Virus record (IMG/VR): IMGVR_UViG_2609459856_000006
Span: 1 to 5,234 of that record
Source: a virus
Taxonomy: Duplodnaviria; Heunggongvirae; Uroviricota; Caudoviricetes
DNA: 5,234 bases
Reading direction: 5' to 3' (one strand)
Shown here: positions 1 through 5,234 of the stretch, piece after piece
Layout: each line of letters opens with the position of its first letter
Numbering within the stretch: position 1 is the stretch's first letter
Program-made: the position numbers and the translations under genes
Notes under the pieces: model-generated
What the model was told of the DNA's origin: nothing
The model's database searches: none
What the model saw: only the letters and a program-made list of their open reading frames with translations

Positions 1-1258
<1,258 letters not shown>

Positions 1259-1757
1259 GAAAGCGCCGGACGGGACTGCATGGACACCACGCAGACGCCG
1301 CGTAACCCGGATACAGGAGCGCATTCGCTTTATCTGGAATAACGAAGCACGCACGCTGAAAAACTGGCATCACGACACGGGGAAATACGGGCGAACCATC
1401 ACCGGGTGGGATGAGGATAAAAACAGCATCCGCACGTTTTACCGGGATGACATCGACCGCTTTCTGGAAATACGCACCCGGCGCATCAACCAGGACAGCA
1501 CAAAGCGCGTCCCCATGTTCGTAAAACTGCGCACCGCCCGCTACCTGAAAGCCCGTGCAGATGCTTCCGGTGTGACGGTGGGTTACAGCGGCGTGGCCGC
1601 ACGTATTGCACGCGTTCATCAGTTCGGTGAGCGCGATCAGGTTGCGCCGGGCATTTTCACCGATTACCCGGTACGTGAGCTGCTGGGTATCAGCCAGGCA
1701 GATGAGCGCCTGATTTATAACACGGTGCTGGGCCGGATTGCGGAGGCTGTACGGTGA
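1259..1757 (+). pseudogene. S: 3' remnant of a phage tail-completion / virion-morphogenesis gene (P2 gpS-like), 5' end removed by the IS insertion
   Basis: Frame is open from the IS boundary to TGA at 1755-1757, with no ATG/GTG/TTG before ATG 1515 and no SD before that ATG. It sits directly upstream of V, as S does in P2. C-terminal ...ARIARVHQFGERDQVAPG... includes an HQFG motif I recall from this family. Family assignment is from memory, not a search. Confidence 0.55.
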
Positions 1758-2335
1758 GCGCAGAACTCATGCGACTGCTGAGCAACATCATCCGTACCGG
1801 GATCATCTCTGAAGTTGATGAGGAATCCTGGTGCGTGCGCGTTCGCAGCGGCGAACTGGAAACAGGCTGGCTGCGCTGGAACACCACGCGCGCGGGAGCC
1901 TTCAATGTGTGGCTGCCGCCATCACCAGGCGAACAGGTGGTAATTGCCTGCATTGGCGGCAACCCGGAAACCGCCATGATAATTGGCAGCCTGTGGAGTG
2001 ATGCCAGTCCGGCCCCCGGCAAAAGCCTGAAAGAAATCGTGGTCAGCGCGCCGGATGGCGCGGTGTTCCGCTACGACGCGGCCGCAGGCGCACTGAGCGC
2101 CAGCGGCATGAAAACAGCCACCCTGCAGGCATCCGTCAGCGTGACACTGGATACGCCCGTCGTGGAATGCACAGACCTTCTGAGAACGGCGACGCTTGAC
2201 GTCACAAAAGGGGGAAAGATGAGCGGCAATATCACGCACAGCGGCGGCAATTTCACCTCAAACGGCATCACAGTGCATACGCATAAACACGGTGGCGTTA
2301 AAGGCGGCAGCGATTCGACAGGAGGCCCGCAGTGA
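1754..2335 (+). CDS. V: Baseplate central spike / baseplate assembly protein V (P2 gpV-like)
   Basis: 193 aa. GTG start at 1754 with GGAGG (1742-1746) 7 nt upstream, overlapping the upstream stop (GTGA). Translation has gpV hallmarks: ...NIIRTGIISEVD...WLRW.TTRAG...GEQV..., APDGAV, VTLDTP, LDVTKGGKMSGNITHSGG and a C-terminal HTHKHGG tip motif. Confidence 0.9.
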   Translation: MSAELMRLLSNIIRTGIISEVDEESWCVRVRSGELETGWLRWNTTRAGAFNVWLPPSPGEQVVIACIGGNPETAMIIGSLWSDASPAPGKSLKEIVVSAPDGAVFRYDAAAGALSASGMKTATLQASVSVTLDTPVVECTDLLRTATLDVTKGGKMSGNITHSGGNFTSNGITVHTHKHGGVKGGSDSTGGPQ

Positions 2336-2682
2336 CAACCCGCTACACAGGAATGAACCCGGACGGAACGGGAAACCTGAACGATATGGAGCACCTGAAA
2401 CAGTCAGTCAGGGACATCCTGACCACCCCGCTGGCAAGCCGGGTTATGCGACGGGAATATGGCAGCCTTGTGCCTGATTTGATTGACGAACCCATGAATA
2501 ACACCACGCGTCTGCAATGCATGAGTGCTGCCGTGATTGCGCTGACACGATGGGAACCCCGCATTGCCCTGGATGCCATCGACGTTGTCTGGAAGGCAGG
2601 AGGCCGCGCCGGGGTGACGCTGTCGGGCACTGTCATGCAGACCATGCAGAATGTTGAATTAACCATCACGCTGAGGGAGTAA
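2332..2682 (+). CDS. W: Baseplate assembly protein W (P2 gpW / T4 gp25-like)
   Basis: 116 aa. GTG start at 2332 overlaps the V stop (GTGA); GGAGG at 2321-2325. Translation MTTRYTGMNPDG...SVRDILTTPLASRVMRREYGSL...WEPRI... closely parallels P2 gpW (MTARYLGMN...RVMRRDYGSL...WEPR). Confidence 0.9.
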   Translation: MTTRYTGMNPDGTGNLNDMEHLKQSVRDILTTPLASRVMRREYGSLVPDLIDEPMNNTTRLQCMSAAVIALTRWEPRIALDAIDVVWKAGGRAGVTLSGTVMQTMQNVELTITLRE

Positions 2683-2685
2683 ATC

Positions 2686-3582
2686 ATGCCTGCCGTTGAC
2701 CTTTCACAGTTACCGGAACCCGCCATCATCGCGGAGCCTGACTTTGAGGCAATTCTGGCTGACACAAAGGCCATGATGATTGCGTCCTATCCCGCCGAAC
2801 AGCGTGAAGCCGTTTCCGCCGCGCTGGAGCTGGAATCGGAACCCCTTAACGTTATCGCTCAAACCATGTCGTTTCGTGAAATGCTGTTACGCCAGCGGGT
2901 CAATGAGGGTGCACGCGCCTGCATGCTAAGCCACAGCGCCGGGACAGACCTGGACAACCTCGCGGGCAATATGAACACAAAGCGCCTGGTTATCACTCCG
3001 GCAACGGATACCACCGACGCAGTGATGGAAAGTGACACCTCGCTGAGACTACGGGCGCAACGGGCATATGACGGTCTGAGTGTTGCTGGCCCGTCAGGTG
3101 CATACGAGTATTTTGCCCGCAGCGCCAGCGGTCTGGTGCGTGATGCGCGGGCTATCAGTCCGTCTCCGGCAAATGTGACGGTTTCCATCCTGTCCACTGA
3201 GGGCGACGGCACAGCAACGGAGGCGTTGCTTAATACCGTTCGCGCCGTTCTGAATGCAGAGGATACCCGCCCGGTGGCCGACCGCCTGACCGTACAGAGT
3301 GCCAGAATCGTGACATGGCGGCTGAATGCAAAACTGTACTTTTACCCCGGCCCGGAATCCGAACCTATTCTGGCCGCGGCGGAATCGTCGTTCAGGAAGT
3401 GGCTGTCTGAGCAGGGGCTTATCGGTCAGGACGTGGCGTTGTCCGCTATTGCTGCCGCACTGCATGTGCACGGTGTGCAACGCGTGGAGATAATCGAACC
3501 CACACAAAATATGGCCATCAGCGACATACAGGCGGCGCGCTGTGAGTCATTCACCATCAGCGAAGGTGGGCGTAATGAGTAA
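2686..3582 (+). CDS. J: Baseplate assembly protein J (P2 gpJ-like baseplate wedge)
   Basis: 298 aa (P2 gpJ is about 300 aa). ATG at 2686 with GGGAG at 2675-2679. Position between W and I matches the P2 order. Confidence 0.88.
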   Translation: MPAVDLSQLPEPAIIAEPDFEAILADTKAMMIASYPAEQREAVSAALELESEPLNVIAQTMSFREMLLRQRVNEGARACMLSHSAGTDLDNLAGNMNTKRLVITPATDTTDAVMESDTSLRLRAQRAYDGLSVAGPSGAYEYFARSASGLVRDARAISPSPANVTVSILSTEGDGTATEALLNTVRAVLNAEDTRPVADRLTVQSARIVTWRLNAKLYFYPGPESEPILAAAESSFRKWLSEQGLIGQDVALSAIAAALHVHGVQRVEIIEPTQNMAISDIQAARCESFTISEGGRNE

Positions 3583-4183
3583 TTCACTGTTACCGCCATC
3601 AGCCAGCAATTTCATGCGTTGTGCCGAAGCCGTCGGAACGCGCATTACAGACATTCCGGTAGACCTCAACACGCTGTGGTCGCCGGACACCTGCCCGGTG
3701 CATCTGCTGCCTTATCTCGCCTGGGCATTTTCCGTTGACCGCTGGGATCGCAACTGGCCGGAAGAGACAAAGCGACAGGTGATTCGTGATGCATGGCTGA
3801 TACACCGACACAAAGGGACCATCAGCGCACTGCGAAGAGCCGTGGAGCCTCTCGGCTACCTGATTGAAGTAAAGGAGTGGTGGCAACTCAACGAGGAGCC
3901 AGGAACATTTCGCATTGTTGTCGGAGTACTTGATCAGGGCATCACCGATGAAATGTATCAGGAACTTGAGCGCCTTATTGCGGATGCAAAACCAGTAAGT
4001 CGCCATCTGACGGGGCTGGCGATCAGCCTGAGTGTGAACGGAAAGATTTTCGTTGGTACGGGATGCTATCACGGCGATGCCCTGACGGTTTATCCCTACA
4101 CCCCGGAGTCCATTATTGTCGAAGGGGATTATTTCCCTGCCCCGGCCATTCATTTAATTGATAATCTGAGAGTAAACGCATGA
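3575..4183 (+). CDS. I: Tail/baseplate protein I (P2 gpI-like)
   Basis: Start chosen at ATG 3575 (AAGGTGGG at 3563-3570), overlapping the J stop by 8 nt; the track's ATG at 3542 lies deeper inside J. Translation ...WSPDTCPVHLLPYLAWAFSVDRWDRNWPEETKRQVIRDAWLIHRHKGTISALRRAVEPLGYLIEVKEWW...GTFRI..GVLDQGITDEMYQELERLIADAKPVSRHL is very close to P2 gpI as I recall it. Confidence 0.88.
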   Translation: MSNSLLPPSASNFMRCAEAVGTRITDIPVDLNTLWSPDTCPVHLLPYLAWAFSVDRWDRNWPEETKRQVIRDAWLIHRHKGTISALRRAVEPLGYLIEVKEWWQLNEEPGTFRIVVGVLDQGITDEMYQELERLIADAKPVSRHLTGLAISLSVNGKIFVGTGCYHGDALTVYPYTPESIIVEGDYFPAPAIHLIDNLRVNA

Positions 4184-5234
4184 CAGTGAAATACTACGCC
4201 ATTCTGACTAATCAGGGCGCGGCACGACTGGCTAACGCGACGATGCTCGGCAGTAAGCTGAATCTGACGCAAATGGCCGTTGGTGATGCAAATGGTGTGT
4301 TACCAACACCAGACCCTGCACAAACAAAACTGATTAACCAGAAACGCATTGCACCGCTGAATCTTCTGAGTGTTGACCCTAACAATCAGAGCCAGATTAT
4401 TGCGGAGCAAATCATCCCTGAAAACGAGGGAGGATTCTGGATCCGTGAGATTGGTCTTTATGATGATGAAGGTGTACTCATTGCGGTGGCAAACTGCCCG
4501 GAAACGTACAAACCGCAGTTGCAGGAAGGCAGTGGACGCACCCAGACTATCCGCATGATTCTGGTTGTCACGAACACCGAAGCCATCACGCTGAAAATCG
4601 ACCCGTCGGTGGTACTGGCGACCCGTAAATACGTGGATGATAAGGTCCTGGAATTAAAGCTGTATGTGGATGACCAGATGAGAAACCACATTGCCGCACA
4701 GGATCCTCATACCCAGTATGCACAGAAACATAATCCGACATTTACCGGAGAACCAAAAGCGCCGACGCCTGCCGCAGGAAATAACACCACGCGGATTGCG
4801 ACTACTGCGTTTGTTCAGGCCGCTATTACCGCTCTGATTAACGGTGCGCCAGCCACGCTGGACACACTGAAAGAAATTGCCGCAGCCATTAACAATGACC
4901 CGAAATTCAGCACCACCATTAACAATGCGCTGGCACTGAAAGCGCCGCTGTCGAGTCCCGCACTTACCGGAACGCCAACAGCACCTACTGCGGCACAGTC
5001 GGTCAACAATACACAGATTGCCACCACGGCTTTTGTGAAATCAGCAATTGCGACAATGGTGGGTTCTGCACCTGCGGCACTGGATACACTGAACGAACTG
5101 GCGGCGGCGCTGGGGAATGACCCGAACTTTGCCACGACAATGCTTAATGCACTGGCAGGTAAACAACCGCTGGACAATACGTTGACTAATTTGAGTGGAA
5201 AGGATGTCGCTGGTCTTCTCGCATACCTTGGTTT
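4180..5234 (+). CDS. H: Tail fibre protein (P2 gpH-like), 3'-partial; continues beyond the window
   Basis: ATG at 4180 overlaps the I stop (ATGA). Frame is open to the end of the window, so it is absent from the ORF track. N-terminus MTVKYYAILTNQGAARLANAT...MAVGDANG...GGFWIREIGLYDDEGVLIAVAN.PETYKP.LQEGSGRTQTIRMILVV parallels the conserved N-terminal domain of P2 gpH and related side tail fibres. Confidence 0.85.
   Translation, partial: MTVKYYAILTNQGAARLANATMLGSKLNLTQMAVGDANGVLPTPDPAQTKLINQKRIAPLNLLSVDPNNQSQIIAEQIIPENEGGFWIREIGLYDDEGVLIAVANCPETYKPQLQEGSGRTQTIRMILVVTNTEAITLKIDPSVVLATRKYVDDKVLELKLYVDDQMRNHIAAQDPHTQYAQKHNPTFTGEPKAPTPAAGNNTTRIATTAFVQAAITALINGAPATLDTLKEIAAAINNDPKFSTTINNALALKAPLSSPALTGTPTAPTAAQSVNNTQIATTAFVKSAIATMVGSAPAALDTLNELAAALGNDPNFATTMLNALAGKQPLDNTLTNLSGKDVAGLLAYLG
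4780..5229 (+). repeat. Intragenic tandem repeat in the tail-fibre gene, two copies of ~75 codons (~225 bp)
   Basis: Copy 1 starts NNTTRIATTAFVQAAITALINGAPATLDTLKEIAAAINNDPKFSTTINNALALKAPL (from 4780). Copy 2 starts NNTQIATTAFVKSAIATMVGSAPAALDTLNELAAALGNDPNFATTMLNALAGKQPL (from 5005). Same frame, diverged at DNA level. Confidence 0.8.

What the first reader, a model, noticed from the sequence alone, without database searches (positions are those of the whole stretch)
4780..5234. Diverged ~75-codon tandem repeats in the tail-fibre shaft, gene truncated by the window
Two in-frame repeat units sharing the core TxIATTAFV...AP.ALDTL.E.A.A...DP.F.T..NALA...PL. Such repeats form modular shaft segments and are substrates for recombination that changes fibre length. 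The receptor-binding C-terminus and the expected chaperone (gpG-like) lie beyond the window.
Basis: seen in the sequence. Interest (0 to 1): 0.4.

Follow-up and report, generated by a model that had tools for sequence, protein, structure and literature searches.

The report
Two-copy shaft module in P2-like tail fibre
The repeats are real: two old, diverged copies of a very common 74-residue building block in the shaft of a P2-type prophage tail fibre, and the gene is cut off exactly where a DNA-inversion switch for alternative fibre tips begins, all of which is ordinary and already known.

Summary
The fibre ORF (4180 to beyond 5234) holds two in-frame tandem units of exactly 74 codons, at 4732-4953 and 4954-5175. 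They are 43/75 aa and 61% nt identical, about 42 SD above shuffles. The repeat starts 48 nt before the finding's start.

The gene is a P2 gpH-type tail fibre. It has a PF12571 N-domain and follows baseplate genes V-W-J-I.

A profile of the unit matches P2 H (aa 256-328) and lambda Stf once each. It matches 39,378 protein clusters, and one fibre has nine units at 74-residue spacing. The unit splits into two sub-modules, A and B, which also occur separately. It is not Pfam's Phage_fiber_2 repeat, and no Pfam or NCBIfam model covers it.

The two-unit allele is 94-98% identical in deposited phages and occurs in about 697 of 5,426 complete E. coli genomes. About 64 genomes carry an exact 222-bp, one-unit version, joined at a 6-nt microhomology. 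The copies are too diverged for ordinary homologous recombination (longest shared run 11 nt).

The window stops 19 nt into a 26-bp Gin-type crossover site. In relatives, alternative tips, Tfa chaperones and an invertase follow.

Verdict: already known, low interest.

The parts
4180..5234 (+). 5' part (351 codons, no stop) of a P2 gpH-type tail fibre gene. It overlaps the stop of gene I by 4 nt.
   Evidence: Translation. The region is 96-99% nt identical to annotated 'phage tail-collar fiber' / 'phage tail protein' genes in E. coli. phrog_327 and phrog_7032 (tail fibre) match at E 1e-170 and 1e-166.
4180..4629 (+). N-terminal baseplate-attachment domain (aa 1-150).
   Evidence: Pfam PF12571 Phage_tail_fib, E 1.6e-62, profile positions 1-150 of 150.
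4630..4731 (+). Linker (aa 151-184, ...VLELKLYVDDQMRNHIAAQDPHTQYAQKH). This is where the allele departs from the P2 H-type alleles.
   Evidence: Sister fibres that share an identical gpI diverge from the window after ...RKYVDDK. The 'H(I/L)AAxDPHxQYAxK' lead-in recurs before sub-module A in P0018, P0024, P0034, P0057 and P0059.
4732..4953 (+). Repeat unit 1 (aa 185-258). Sub-module A1 is 4732-4815 (NPTFTGEPKAPTPAAGNNTTRIATTAFV). Sub-module B1 is 4816-4953 (QAAITALINGAPATLDTLKEIAAAINNDPKFSTTINNALALKAPLS). This is the 'internal' type, with the KEIAAAINND signature.
   Evidence: HMM score 140.0. It is 74-81% identical to unit 1 of P0018/P0024 but only 58% identical to its own unit 2.
4954..5175 (+). 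Repeat unit 2 (aa 259-332). Sub-module A2 is 4954-5037 and sub-module B2 is 5038-5175. This is the 'terminal' type, the counterpart of the single unit of P2 H and lambda Stf.
   Evidence: HMM score 140.3. It is 79% identical to P2 H aa 256-328 and 85-88% identical to unit 2 of P0018/P0024.
5176..5234 (+). Connector NTLTNLSGKDVAGLLAYLG, leading to the constant/variable junction (YLG|LGE).
   Evidence: Relatives continue ...YLGLGE and then carry more than 20 different C-terminal tips.
5216..5234 (.). First 19 nt of a 26-bp DNA-invertase crossover site, TTCTCGCATACC TT GGTTT(GGGAGAA). The window ends inside it.
   Evidence: In L001 and L013 this site and an inverted partner flank a 1.85-kb segment next to a recombinase gene. 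Mu gixL (annotated G-segment boundary) lies at the same place in the same NLGLQE/YLGLGE codons. 12-13 of 80 related IMG/VR contigs also stop at this site.
3575..4183 (+). Gene I (baseplate/tail protein I, 202 aa), the upstream neighbour that fixes the P2-type gene order.
   Evidence: PF09684 Tail_P2_I, E 4e-53. The identical protein occurs in many E. coli P2-like prophages, always followed by the fibre gene.

Best explanation
The region encodes the constant proximal part of the tail fibre (the gpH homologue) of a P2-like myovirus prophage of E. coli or a close relative.

After the baseplate-binding N-domain, the shaft consists of two tandem copies of a 74-residue module. Each module has two parts. 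Sub-module A is a Pro/Thr-rich stretch that ends in IATTAFV. Sub-module B is a probably helical stretch, AP..LDTL.E.AAA..NDP.F.TT..NALA.K.

The two copies come from an old duplication or module acquisition. Unit 2 is the counterpart of the single unit in P2 H and lambda Stf. Unit 1 is a separate 'internal' type. The module is a general-purpose building block of phage fibres, and its number sets shaft length (inferred from copy-number variation, not measured).

Copy number differs between alleles, but through rare illegitimate or inter-allelic exchange rather than frequent homologous recombination between these two diverged copies.

The fibre is not truncated biologically. The sequence stops inside the crossover site of a Gin/Cin-type invertase. 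In relatives, an invertible segment with alternative receptor-binding tips and their Tfa (gpG-family) chaperones lies beyond that site. The break is most likely an assembly break at this inverted repeat.
For: Shown:
- Repeat statistics.
- PF12571 N-domain and the V-W-J-I-H gene order.
- The unit HMM hits P2 H aa 256-328 (E 1.9e-35) and the lambda stf region (E 2.6e-33).
- 32 PHROG families, most of them annotated as tail fibre or tail proteins, match the two-unit stretch.
- 39,378 cluster representatives match the unit, and up to 9 full units occur at 74-aa spacing.
- Sub-modules A and B occur separately and in other orders.
- Sister prophages with an identical gpI carry other shaft alleles: 2x or 4x PF03406 repeats with one or no unit.
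- The two-unit allele is 94-98% identical in deposited phages, and its junction is found in 697/5426 complete E. coli genomes.
- The one-unit allele is an exact 222-bp in-register difference with its junction in CTGGCA. It is present in 64/5426 genomes.
- Units cluster by position.
- Crossover site: inverted partner sites; the same position as Mu gixL, and a relative's invertase 141/201 identical to Gin.
- Relatives have alternative tips, Caudo_TAP genes and a Resolvase-family gene directly downstream.
- Related contigs repeatedly end at this site.

Inferred: the trimeric fibre, the helical nature of B, the length-setting role and the assembly-break origin of the truncation.
Against: - No solved or confident predicted structure supports the proposed fold of the unit. 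The AF2 monomer gave pLDDT 48.6. The PDB matches are at the level of deposited chain sequences, and for 80alpha FibU the matching part was not resolved.
- The downstream part of this particular genome was not seen, so the presence and integrity of its tips, chaperones and invertase are extrapolated from relatives.
- The fibre of the closest complete-genome relative (L001, 99.0% nt) is annotated as frameshifted in its variable part.
- Gene S of this prophage is interrupted by an IS, so the fibre may no longer be used here.
Confidence: 0.85

Rival explanations
1. The two copies are an active recombination hot spot. Homologous recombination between them frequently deletes or adds units and so varies fibre length within lineages.
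For: One-unit alleles whose sequence is unit 1 fused in register to the last residues of unit 2 exist in about 64 complete E. coli genomes. One database protein (P0001) shows a three-unit-like hybrid.
Against: The copies share 61% nt identity and at most 11 identical bases in a row. That is far below the roughly 20-30 bp usually quoted as needed for RecA-dependent exchange (recalled from general knowledge, not checked here). Units cluster by position across diverged fibres, which shows no concerted evolution. All 78 IMG/VR relatives that could be read have exactly two units. The P0001-type hybrid junction occurs as a single piece in none of the best-ranked matches among 5,426 complete genomes, and P0001 is itself a chimera with a capsid-scaffold N-terminus, so it is probably a misassembly. 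The one-unit allele examined sits in a different P2-like lineage, with gene I only 76% identical.
Confidence: 0.15
2. The fibre gene is a decaying pseudogene in a defective prophage, and the 'truncation' reflects real loss of the 3' part.
For: An ISEc31-like element sits 134 nt into the tail-completion gene S. The closest complete-genome relative has a frameshifted fibre and a frameshifted Tfa gene.
Against: The 351 codons present are intact and 98-99% identical to full-length fibres of inducible or sequenced phages. The break falls exactly in the crossover site, where 12-13 unrelated assemblies also break, and the other end of the window falls exactly at an IS terminus. This pattern is typical of a short-read contig bounded by repeats.
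Confidence: 0.2
3. The similarity is compositional (an Ala/Thr/Asn-rich, low-complexity shaft) rather than a true duplication.
For: The shaft is 22% Ala and 15.5% Thr. An antisense ORF (4815-5177) mirrors this composition.
Against: The score is about 42 SD above composition-preserving shuffles. The alignment is ungapped over 75 residues with 43 identities. The same unit is recovered as a discrete profile in tens of thousands of proteins.
Confidence: 0.01

Closest known systems
Bacteriophage P2 tail fibre protein gpH (NP_046775, NC_001895) with its chaperone gpG
   Same: Both have the PF12571 N-terminal domain and the same gene position after V-W-J-I. P2 H has one copy of the same 74-aa unit at aa 256-328, just before GKQP. 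The shaft ends at almost the same residue (328 vs 332). In relatives, a Caudo_TAP/gpG-family chaperone gene follows.
   Different: P2 H has two PF03406 repeats where the window has its linker and unit 1. P2 H has a longer connector, a fixed 340-aa tip and no invertible segment. The window's allele has two units, no PF03406 repeat, and a crossover site at the YLGLGE junction.
P2-like phages that carry the same two-unit allele: 'Escherichia phage P2' from O157:H43 T22 (KC618326, Peduovirus magyaro), S164, 500465-2, Cartapus, Klebsiella phages 4LV2017 and KP12
   Same: They are 94-98% aa identical over the two units. The T22 phage fibre is 499 aa with units at aa 185-258 and 259-332, followed by Tfa genes in both orientations and an annotated 'phage DNA invertase'.
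   Different: Only point differences. In most IMG/VR relatives the N-terminal domain is another allele (MSTKFYTLLT...), and the tips differ.
Phage Mu G segment (S/S', U/U', Gin, gix). P1 C segment/Cin and e14 P segment/Pin are recalled from memory and were not tested here.
   Same: The crossover site lies inside the fibre gene at the constant/variable junction, in the homologous NLGLQE/YLGLGE codons. Mu gixL is TTATCCAAAACCTCGGTTTACAGGAA and the site here is TTCTCGCATACCTTGGTTTGGGAGAA. A relative's invertase is 141/201 identical to Gin.
   Different: Mu S has no copy of the 74-aa unit and a different N-terminal part. The invertase and the partner site are not in the window.
Lambda side tail fibre Stf (orf-401/orf-314)
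   Same: It has one copy of the unit (SPALTGTPTAPTALRGTNNTQIANTAFV...GKQP), E 2.6e-33.
   Different: It belongs to a siphovirus side fibre with an unrelated N-terminal part. It has a single unit and no inversion.
Pfam PF03406 Phage_fiber_2 ('phage tail fibre repeat')
   Same: It is also a short repeat of fibre shafts, and it occupies the equivalent shaft position in sister alleles.
   Different: It is a different sequence family (KGxVQLSSATNSTSETLAATPKAVK). It does not match the window at E <= 10.

Membership tests
P2 gpH-type tail fibre (PF12571 / COG5301 'phage tail-collar fibre') | N-terminal Phage_tail_fib domain | tested here: met
   PF12571, E 1.6e-62, aa 1-150 against profile positions 1-150 of 150.
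P2 gpH-type tail fibre (PF12571 / COG5301 'phage tail-collar fibre') | Gene lies directly after baseplate genes V, W, J and I | tested here: met
   PF04717/PF18715 (V), PF04965 (W), PF04865 (J) and PF09684 (I) lie at 1754-4183, in order and on the same strand.
P2 gpH-type tail fibre (PF12571 / COG5301 'phage tail-collar fibre') | C-terminal receptor-binding tip and a downstream Tfa/gpG-family (PF02413) chaperone gene | not testable with these tools
   These lie beyond the end of the window. They are present in all relatives that read on.
74-residue A+B fibre-shaft unit (as in P2 H aa 256-328 and lambda Stf) | A profile of the unit matches the reference fibres over its full length | tested here: met
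   P2 H: E 1.9e-35, profile positions 1-73. Lambda stf: E 2.6e-33, profile positions 1-72. The profile was built from the window's own two units.
74-residue A+B fibre-shaft unit (as in P2 H aa 256-328 and lambda Stf) | Occurs as head-to-tail arrays with a 74-residue period | tested here: met
   The window has an offset of exactly 74. P0122 has 9 full units spaced 74, 74, 78, 74, 74, 74, 74, 74.
74-residue A+B fibre-shaft unit (as in P2 H aa 256-328 and lambda Stf) | Forms a trimeric shaft segment of defined structure | tested here: inconclusive
   The AF2 monomer model had pLDDT 48.6 and pTM 0.18. PDB matches are only to deposited chain sequences: 9d93 gp4, 9k09 gp24 and 6v8i FibU. The FibU part was not resolved.
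Pfam PF03406 Phage_fiber_2 repeat | Match to the PF03406 profile | tested here: not met
   No PF03406 hit at E <= 10 on aa 151-351 or on the full-length relative L002. Sister alleles L003-L012 do carry it.
Gin/Cin/Pin-type invertible tail-fibre switch | 26-bp imperfectly palindromic crossover site inside the fibre gene at the constant/variable junction | tested here: met
   19 of 26 nt are present at 5216-5234. The full site and its position match relatives and Mu gixL.
Gin/Cin/Pin-type invertible tail-fibre switch | Inverted partner site, alternative tip and chaperone genes on the opposite strand, and an adjacent serine invertase | not testable with these tools
   These are outside the window. 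They are present in L001, L002, L013, L016 and L003-L012. The L002 invertase is 141/201 identical to Mu Gin.
Gin/Cin/Pin-type invertible tail-fibre switch | Demonstrated inversion (both orientations in a population) | not tested
   Only indirect evidence is available: many assemblies break at the site.

The most novel reading that the evidence does not exclude
The 74-residue A+B unit is among the most widespread fibre-shaft building blocks. It matches 39,378 clusters at 50% identity, it is found in phages of both Proteobacteria and Actinobacteria, and it forms arrays of up to at least 9 copies at a strict 74-residue period. Yet it has no Pfam or NCBIfam model and, as far as I could find, no resolved structure. 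If each unit adds a fixed increment to shaft length, it would be a natural 'ruler' module for setting and engineering fibre length.
Probability: 0.4. Interest if true: 0.25.

Novelty: already known. Interest (0 to 1): 0.12.

Why it matters
It matters little beyond correct annotation. The stretch is the constant part of a P2-type tail fibre whose allele is already deposited many times.

Three practical points follow.

1. The 'truncated gene' is an assembly break at an inversion site, not a pseudogene signal.
2. This prophage probably cannot make tails, because an IS interrupts gene S.
3. The 74-residue unit is very common but lacks a profile in Pfam and NCBIfam, so fibres like this one are annotated only through their N-domain. 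A curated model and a trimer structure would help fibre annotation and host-range engineering.

Tried and rejected
- **Pfam and NCBIfam on the repeat part.** Only noise hits came back: acyl-CoA oxidase, HTH_3 and lactate oxidase. The unit is not PF03406.
- **AlphaFold2 on aa 171-351 with a 16-sequence alignment.** The model had pLDDT 48.6 and pTM 0.18 and is unusable. I did not run fold search, because matches to such a model would be meaningless. Its helix pattern is the same in both units (three helices over the end of A and all of B), which I treat only as a hint.
- **PDB sequence and profile searches.** These matched Bxb1 gp4, cyanophage A4 gp24 and 80alpha FibU for single sub-modules. For FibU the paper states there is no density beyond residue 123. 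The Bxb1 paper (PMC12124961) is not held, so I claim no structural inference.
- **A three-unit allele.** P0001 looked like one, but it is a one-off chimera with a capsid-scaffold N-terminus. Its hybrid junction was found only as two joined pieces in the best-ranked matches among complete genomes. I rejected it as a probable misassembly.
- **A 37-residue half-period inside the unit.** The score was 45 against a shuffle maximum of 46, with 22/86 identical. This is not significant.
- **Counting one-unit alleles with a 120-nt junction query.** This failed because the tool joins split pieces. I repeated it with a 50-nt query.
- **The exact IS/gene-S junction.** No complete E. coli genome has it. 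I did not look further for the source genome.
- **Literature search for the motif string.** It found nothing.

Full report
**What the window is.** From left to right the 5,234-base window holds these features.
- An ISEc31-like IS3-family element lies at 1-1258. It is 98.7% identical to annotated copies, has terminal inverted repeats TGTAGTGG..., and has an A AAA AAG slippery site at 333 between orfA and orfB.
- The 3' three-quarters of the P2 tail-completion gene S follows.
- Next come V (1754-2335), W (2332-2682), J (2686-3582) and I (3575-4183).
- An ORF starts at 4180 and runs off the end after 351 codons.

That last ORF carries the Pfam 'phage tail-collar fibre N-terminal' domain over aa 1-150 (E 1.6e-62). 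It is 96-99% identical at the DNA level to annotated tail-fibre genes of P2-like prophages in hundreds of complete E. coli genomes. It is therefore the gpH homologue of a P2-like myovirus.

**Checking the observation.** The strongest self-diagonal of the protein has an offset of exactly 74 residues. It pairs aa 185-259 with aa 259-333: 43/75 identical, ungapped, BLOSUM62 score 217. Composition-preserving shuffles gave 31.1 +/- 4.4, with a maximum of 46. The units are nt 4732-4953 and 4954-5175. At the DNA level the copies are 61% identical, third positions are close to saturation (28/74), and the longest identical run is 11 nt. There are two copies and no third.

**What the unit is.** No Pfam or NCBIfam model covers it. 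In particular it is not PF03406, the Pfam 'phage tail fibre repeat'. It is nonetheless a very common fibre element.
- A profile of the two copies matches phage P2's own gpH once, at aa 256-328 (E 1.9e-35).
- It matches the lambda stf region once (E 2.6e-33) and does not match Mu S.
- The two-unit stretch matches 32 PHROG families, most of them annotated as tail fibre or tail proteins.
- It matches fibres of 628 deposited phages, including many Mycobacterium, Gordonia and Microbacterium phages.
- An exhaustive profile search found 39,378 cluster representatives at E <= 1e-3 and 1,575 at E <= 1e-30. Some have many copies. P0122 has nine full units spaced 74, 74, 78, 74, 74, 74, 74, 74 residues.

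The unit splits into two sub-modules. Sub-module A is LxSPxLTGxPTAPT(x5)NxTQIATTAFV. Sub-module B is xxAIAALvxsAPxALDTLNELAAALGNDPNFATTxTNALAxK. They also occur alone or in other orders, such as A-A-B and A-B-A.

The PDB chain sequences of Bxb1 gp4 (B, E 4e-15), cyanophage A4 gp24 (A twice, E 1e-7) and 80alpha FibU (B, E 2e-5) contain single sub-modules. For FibU that part was not resolved. My monomer AlphaFold model was unusable, with pLDDT 48.6. The fold of the unit is therefore inferred, not shown.

**Copy number among relatives.** Prophages that encode exactly the same gpI carry different shaft alleles behind the same N-domain.
- The window's type has a linker and two units (L001, L002).
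- A P2 H-like type has two PF03406 repeats and one unit (L004-L007, L011, L012).
- A third type has four PF03406 repeats and no unit (L003, L008, L009).

The two-unit allele is 94-98% identical in deposited phages: the 'P2' of O157:H43 T22, S164, 500465-2, Cartapus and several Klebsiella phages. Its unit1-to-unit2 junction is found in 697 of 5,426 complete E. coli genomes. All 78 IMG/VR relatives that could be read have exactly two units. Yet 72 of them have another N-domain allele, and together they carry more than 20 different tips.

A one-unit version also exists (L013, L014, P0083, P0087, P0089, P0096). It is the window's sequence with an exact 222-bp in-register difference. Unit 1 is joined to the last residues of unit 2 (NNALA|GKQPLD), and the junction lies within the shared hexamer CTGGCA. 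Flanking identity is 96% on both sides. A 50-nt junction probe finds this version in 64 complete genomes.

**Are the repeats recombination substrates?** Only weakly.
- The copies share at most 11 identical bases in a row.
- Unit 1 and unit 2 each resemble the same-position unit of diverged fibres (74-88%) far more than they resemble each other (58%). The duplication is therefore old and the copies are not homogenised.
- Unit 2 is the counterpart of the single P2 H/lambda unit (79% to P2 H).
- The one-unit allele fits a rare microhomology-mediated event or an exchange between alleles, not routine unequal crossing-over.
- The only three-unit-like sequence (P0001) is a chimera and has no support in complete genomes.

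Mosaic joints inside sub-module B do occur. In P0105 and P0118 a P2 H-type unit is joined to the window-type tail after GNDPNFATTM. This fits the long-standing view that conserved fibre segments act as exchange points. I cite that view from memory (Haggard-Ljungquist et al. 1992; Sandmeier 1994), and PMC8986868 refers to it.

**Why the gene is cut off.** The last 19 nt of the window, TTCTCGCATACCTTGGTTT, are the first 19 nt of a 26-bp imperfect palindrome, TTCTCGCATACC TT GGTTTGGGAGAA. In L001 and L013 this site and an inverted partner (TTTTCATAAACGTTGGTTTGGGAGAA) flank a segment of about 1.85 kb. That segment holds alternative fibre tips and Tfa genes on both strands, next to a serine recombinase gene. 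In L002 the inverted repeat extends to 270 nt.

Phage Mu's annotated G-segment boundary (gixL, TTATCCAAAACCTCGGTTTACAGGAA) lies in the homologous codons, FIQNLGLQE against LAYLGLGE. The L002 recombinase is 141/201 identical to Gin. Programmed inversions of COG5301 fibre genes next to 'tail protein I' and Tfa genes are documented (PMC9881135).

In 12-13 of 80 related viral contigs the sequence ends at this same site. The window's other end is exactly an IS terminus. The window therefore looks like a complete short-read contig bounded by two repeats. The 'truncation' is an assembly artefact at the boundary between the constant and variable parts of the fibre.

**Mechanism, with status.**
- Shown: the gene identity, the repeat and its family, the copy-number variants, and the crossover site.
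- Inferred: gpH trimers dock on the baseplate through the N-domain. The two units form successive shaft segments, so unit number sets shaft length. The invertase swaps the tip together with its chaperone.
- Unknown for this genome: whether the downstream parts are intact. Gene S is broken by the IS, so this prophage probably cannot complete tails, and the fibre may be unused here.

**Verdict.** The finding is real and correctly interpreted in the main. It describes an ordinary, already deposited allele of a well-known mosaic gene. Novelty: already known. Interest: low (0.12). The only mildly new point is that this very common 74-residue unit has no curated profile and no resolved structure.

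Noticed in passing
window 1-1258 (junction with gene S at about 1256-1258): An ISEc31-like IS3-family element is 98.7% identical to annotated copies. It has terminal inverted repeats TGTAGTGG..., orfA at 37-384, orfB at 504-1250, and an A AAA AAG frameshift motif at 333. It is inserted 134 nt into the tail-completion gene S, so the prophage is probably defective. No complete E. coli genome in the collection has this junction.
   Followed up: partly
window 1 and window 5234: Both ends of the window coincide with repeat boundaries: an IS terminus on the left and an invertase crossover site on the right. This suggests the window is a whole short-read contig. 12-13 of 80 related IMG/VR contigs end at the same crossover site.
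   Followed up: yes
window 4815-5177, minus strand: A 120-aa antisense ORF lies entirely inside the repeat region. It mirrors the Ala-rich GCN codons of the fibre frame. Nothing suggests it is a gene.
   Followed up: no
window 4771-5139 (aa 198-320 of the fibre): There is a weak 37-residue half-period inside the 74-residue unit (AA.GNNTTRIATT ~ AAINNDPKFSTT). The score is 45 against a shuffle maximum of 46, with 22/86 identical. This may be an ancient internal duplication or only composition. The motif [ILM]A[TN]xx[FY]V also occurs three times, at aa 146, 206 and 280.
   Followed up: partly
window 1754-2335: The gene V ORF can start at a GTG at 1754, giving 193 aa that overlap the end of S. 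Some relatives are annotated with a 188-aa V that starts 15 nt later. Both forms appear in gene calls of identical loci.
   Followed up: no
L003, L008, L009, L010 (5184-7064 in each locus): Some sister prophages with an identical gpI carry an extra 626-aa gene between the lysis genes and gene R. It has SASA (sialate O-acetylesterase-like) and DUF6645 domains. It is absent from the others and cannot be assessed in the window.
   Followed up: no
L013 1697-2308 compared with window 3575-4183: The one-unit fibre allele of strain EC-10 is 96% identical to the window in the fibre gene, but its gene I is only 76% identical. The fibre 5' part has therefore moved between distinct P2-like lineages.
   Followed up: partly
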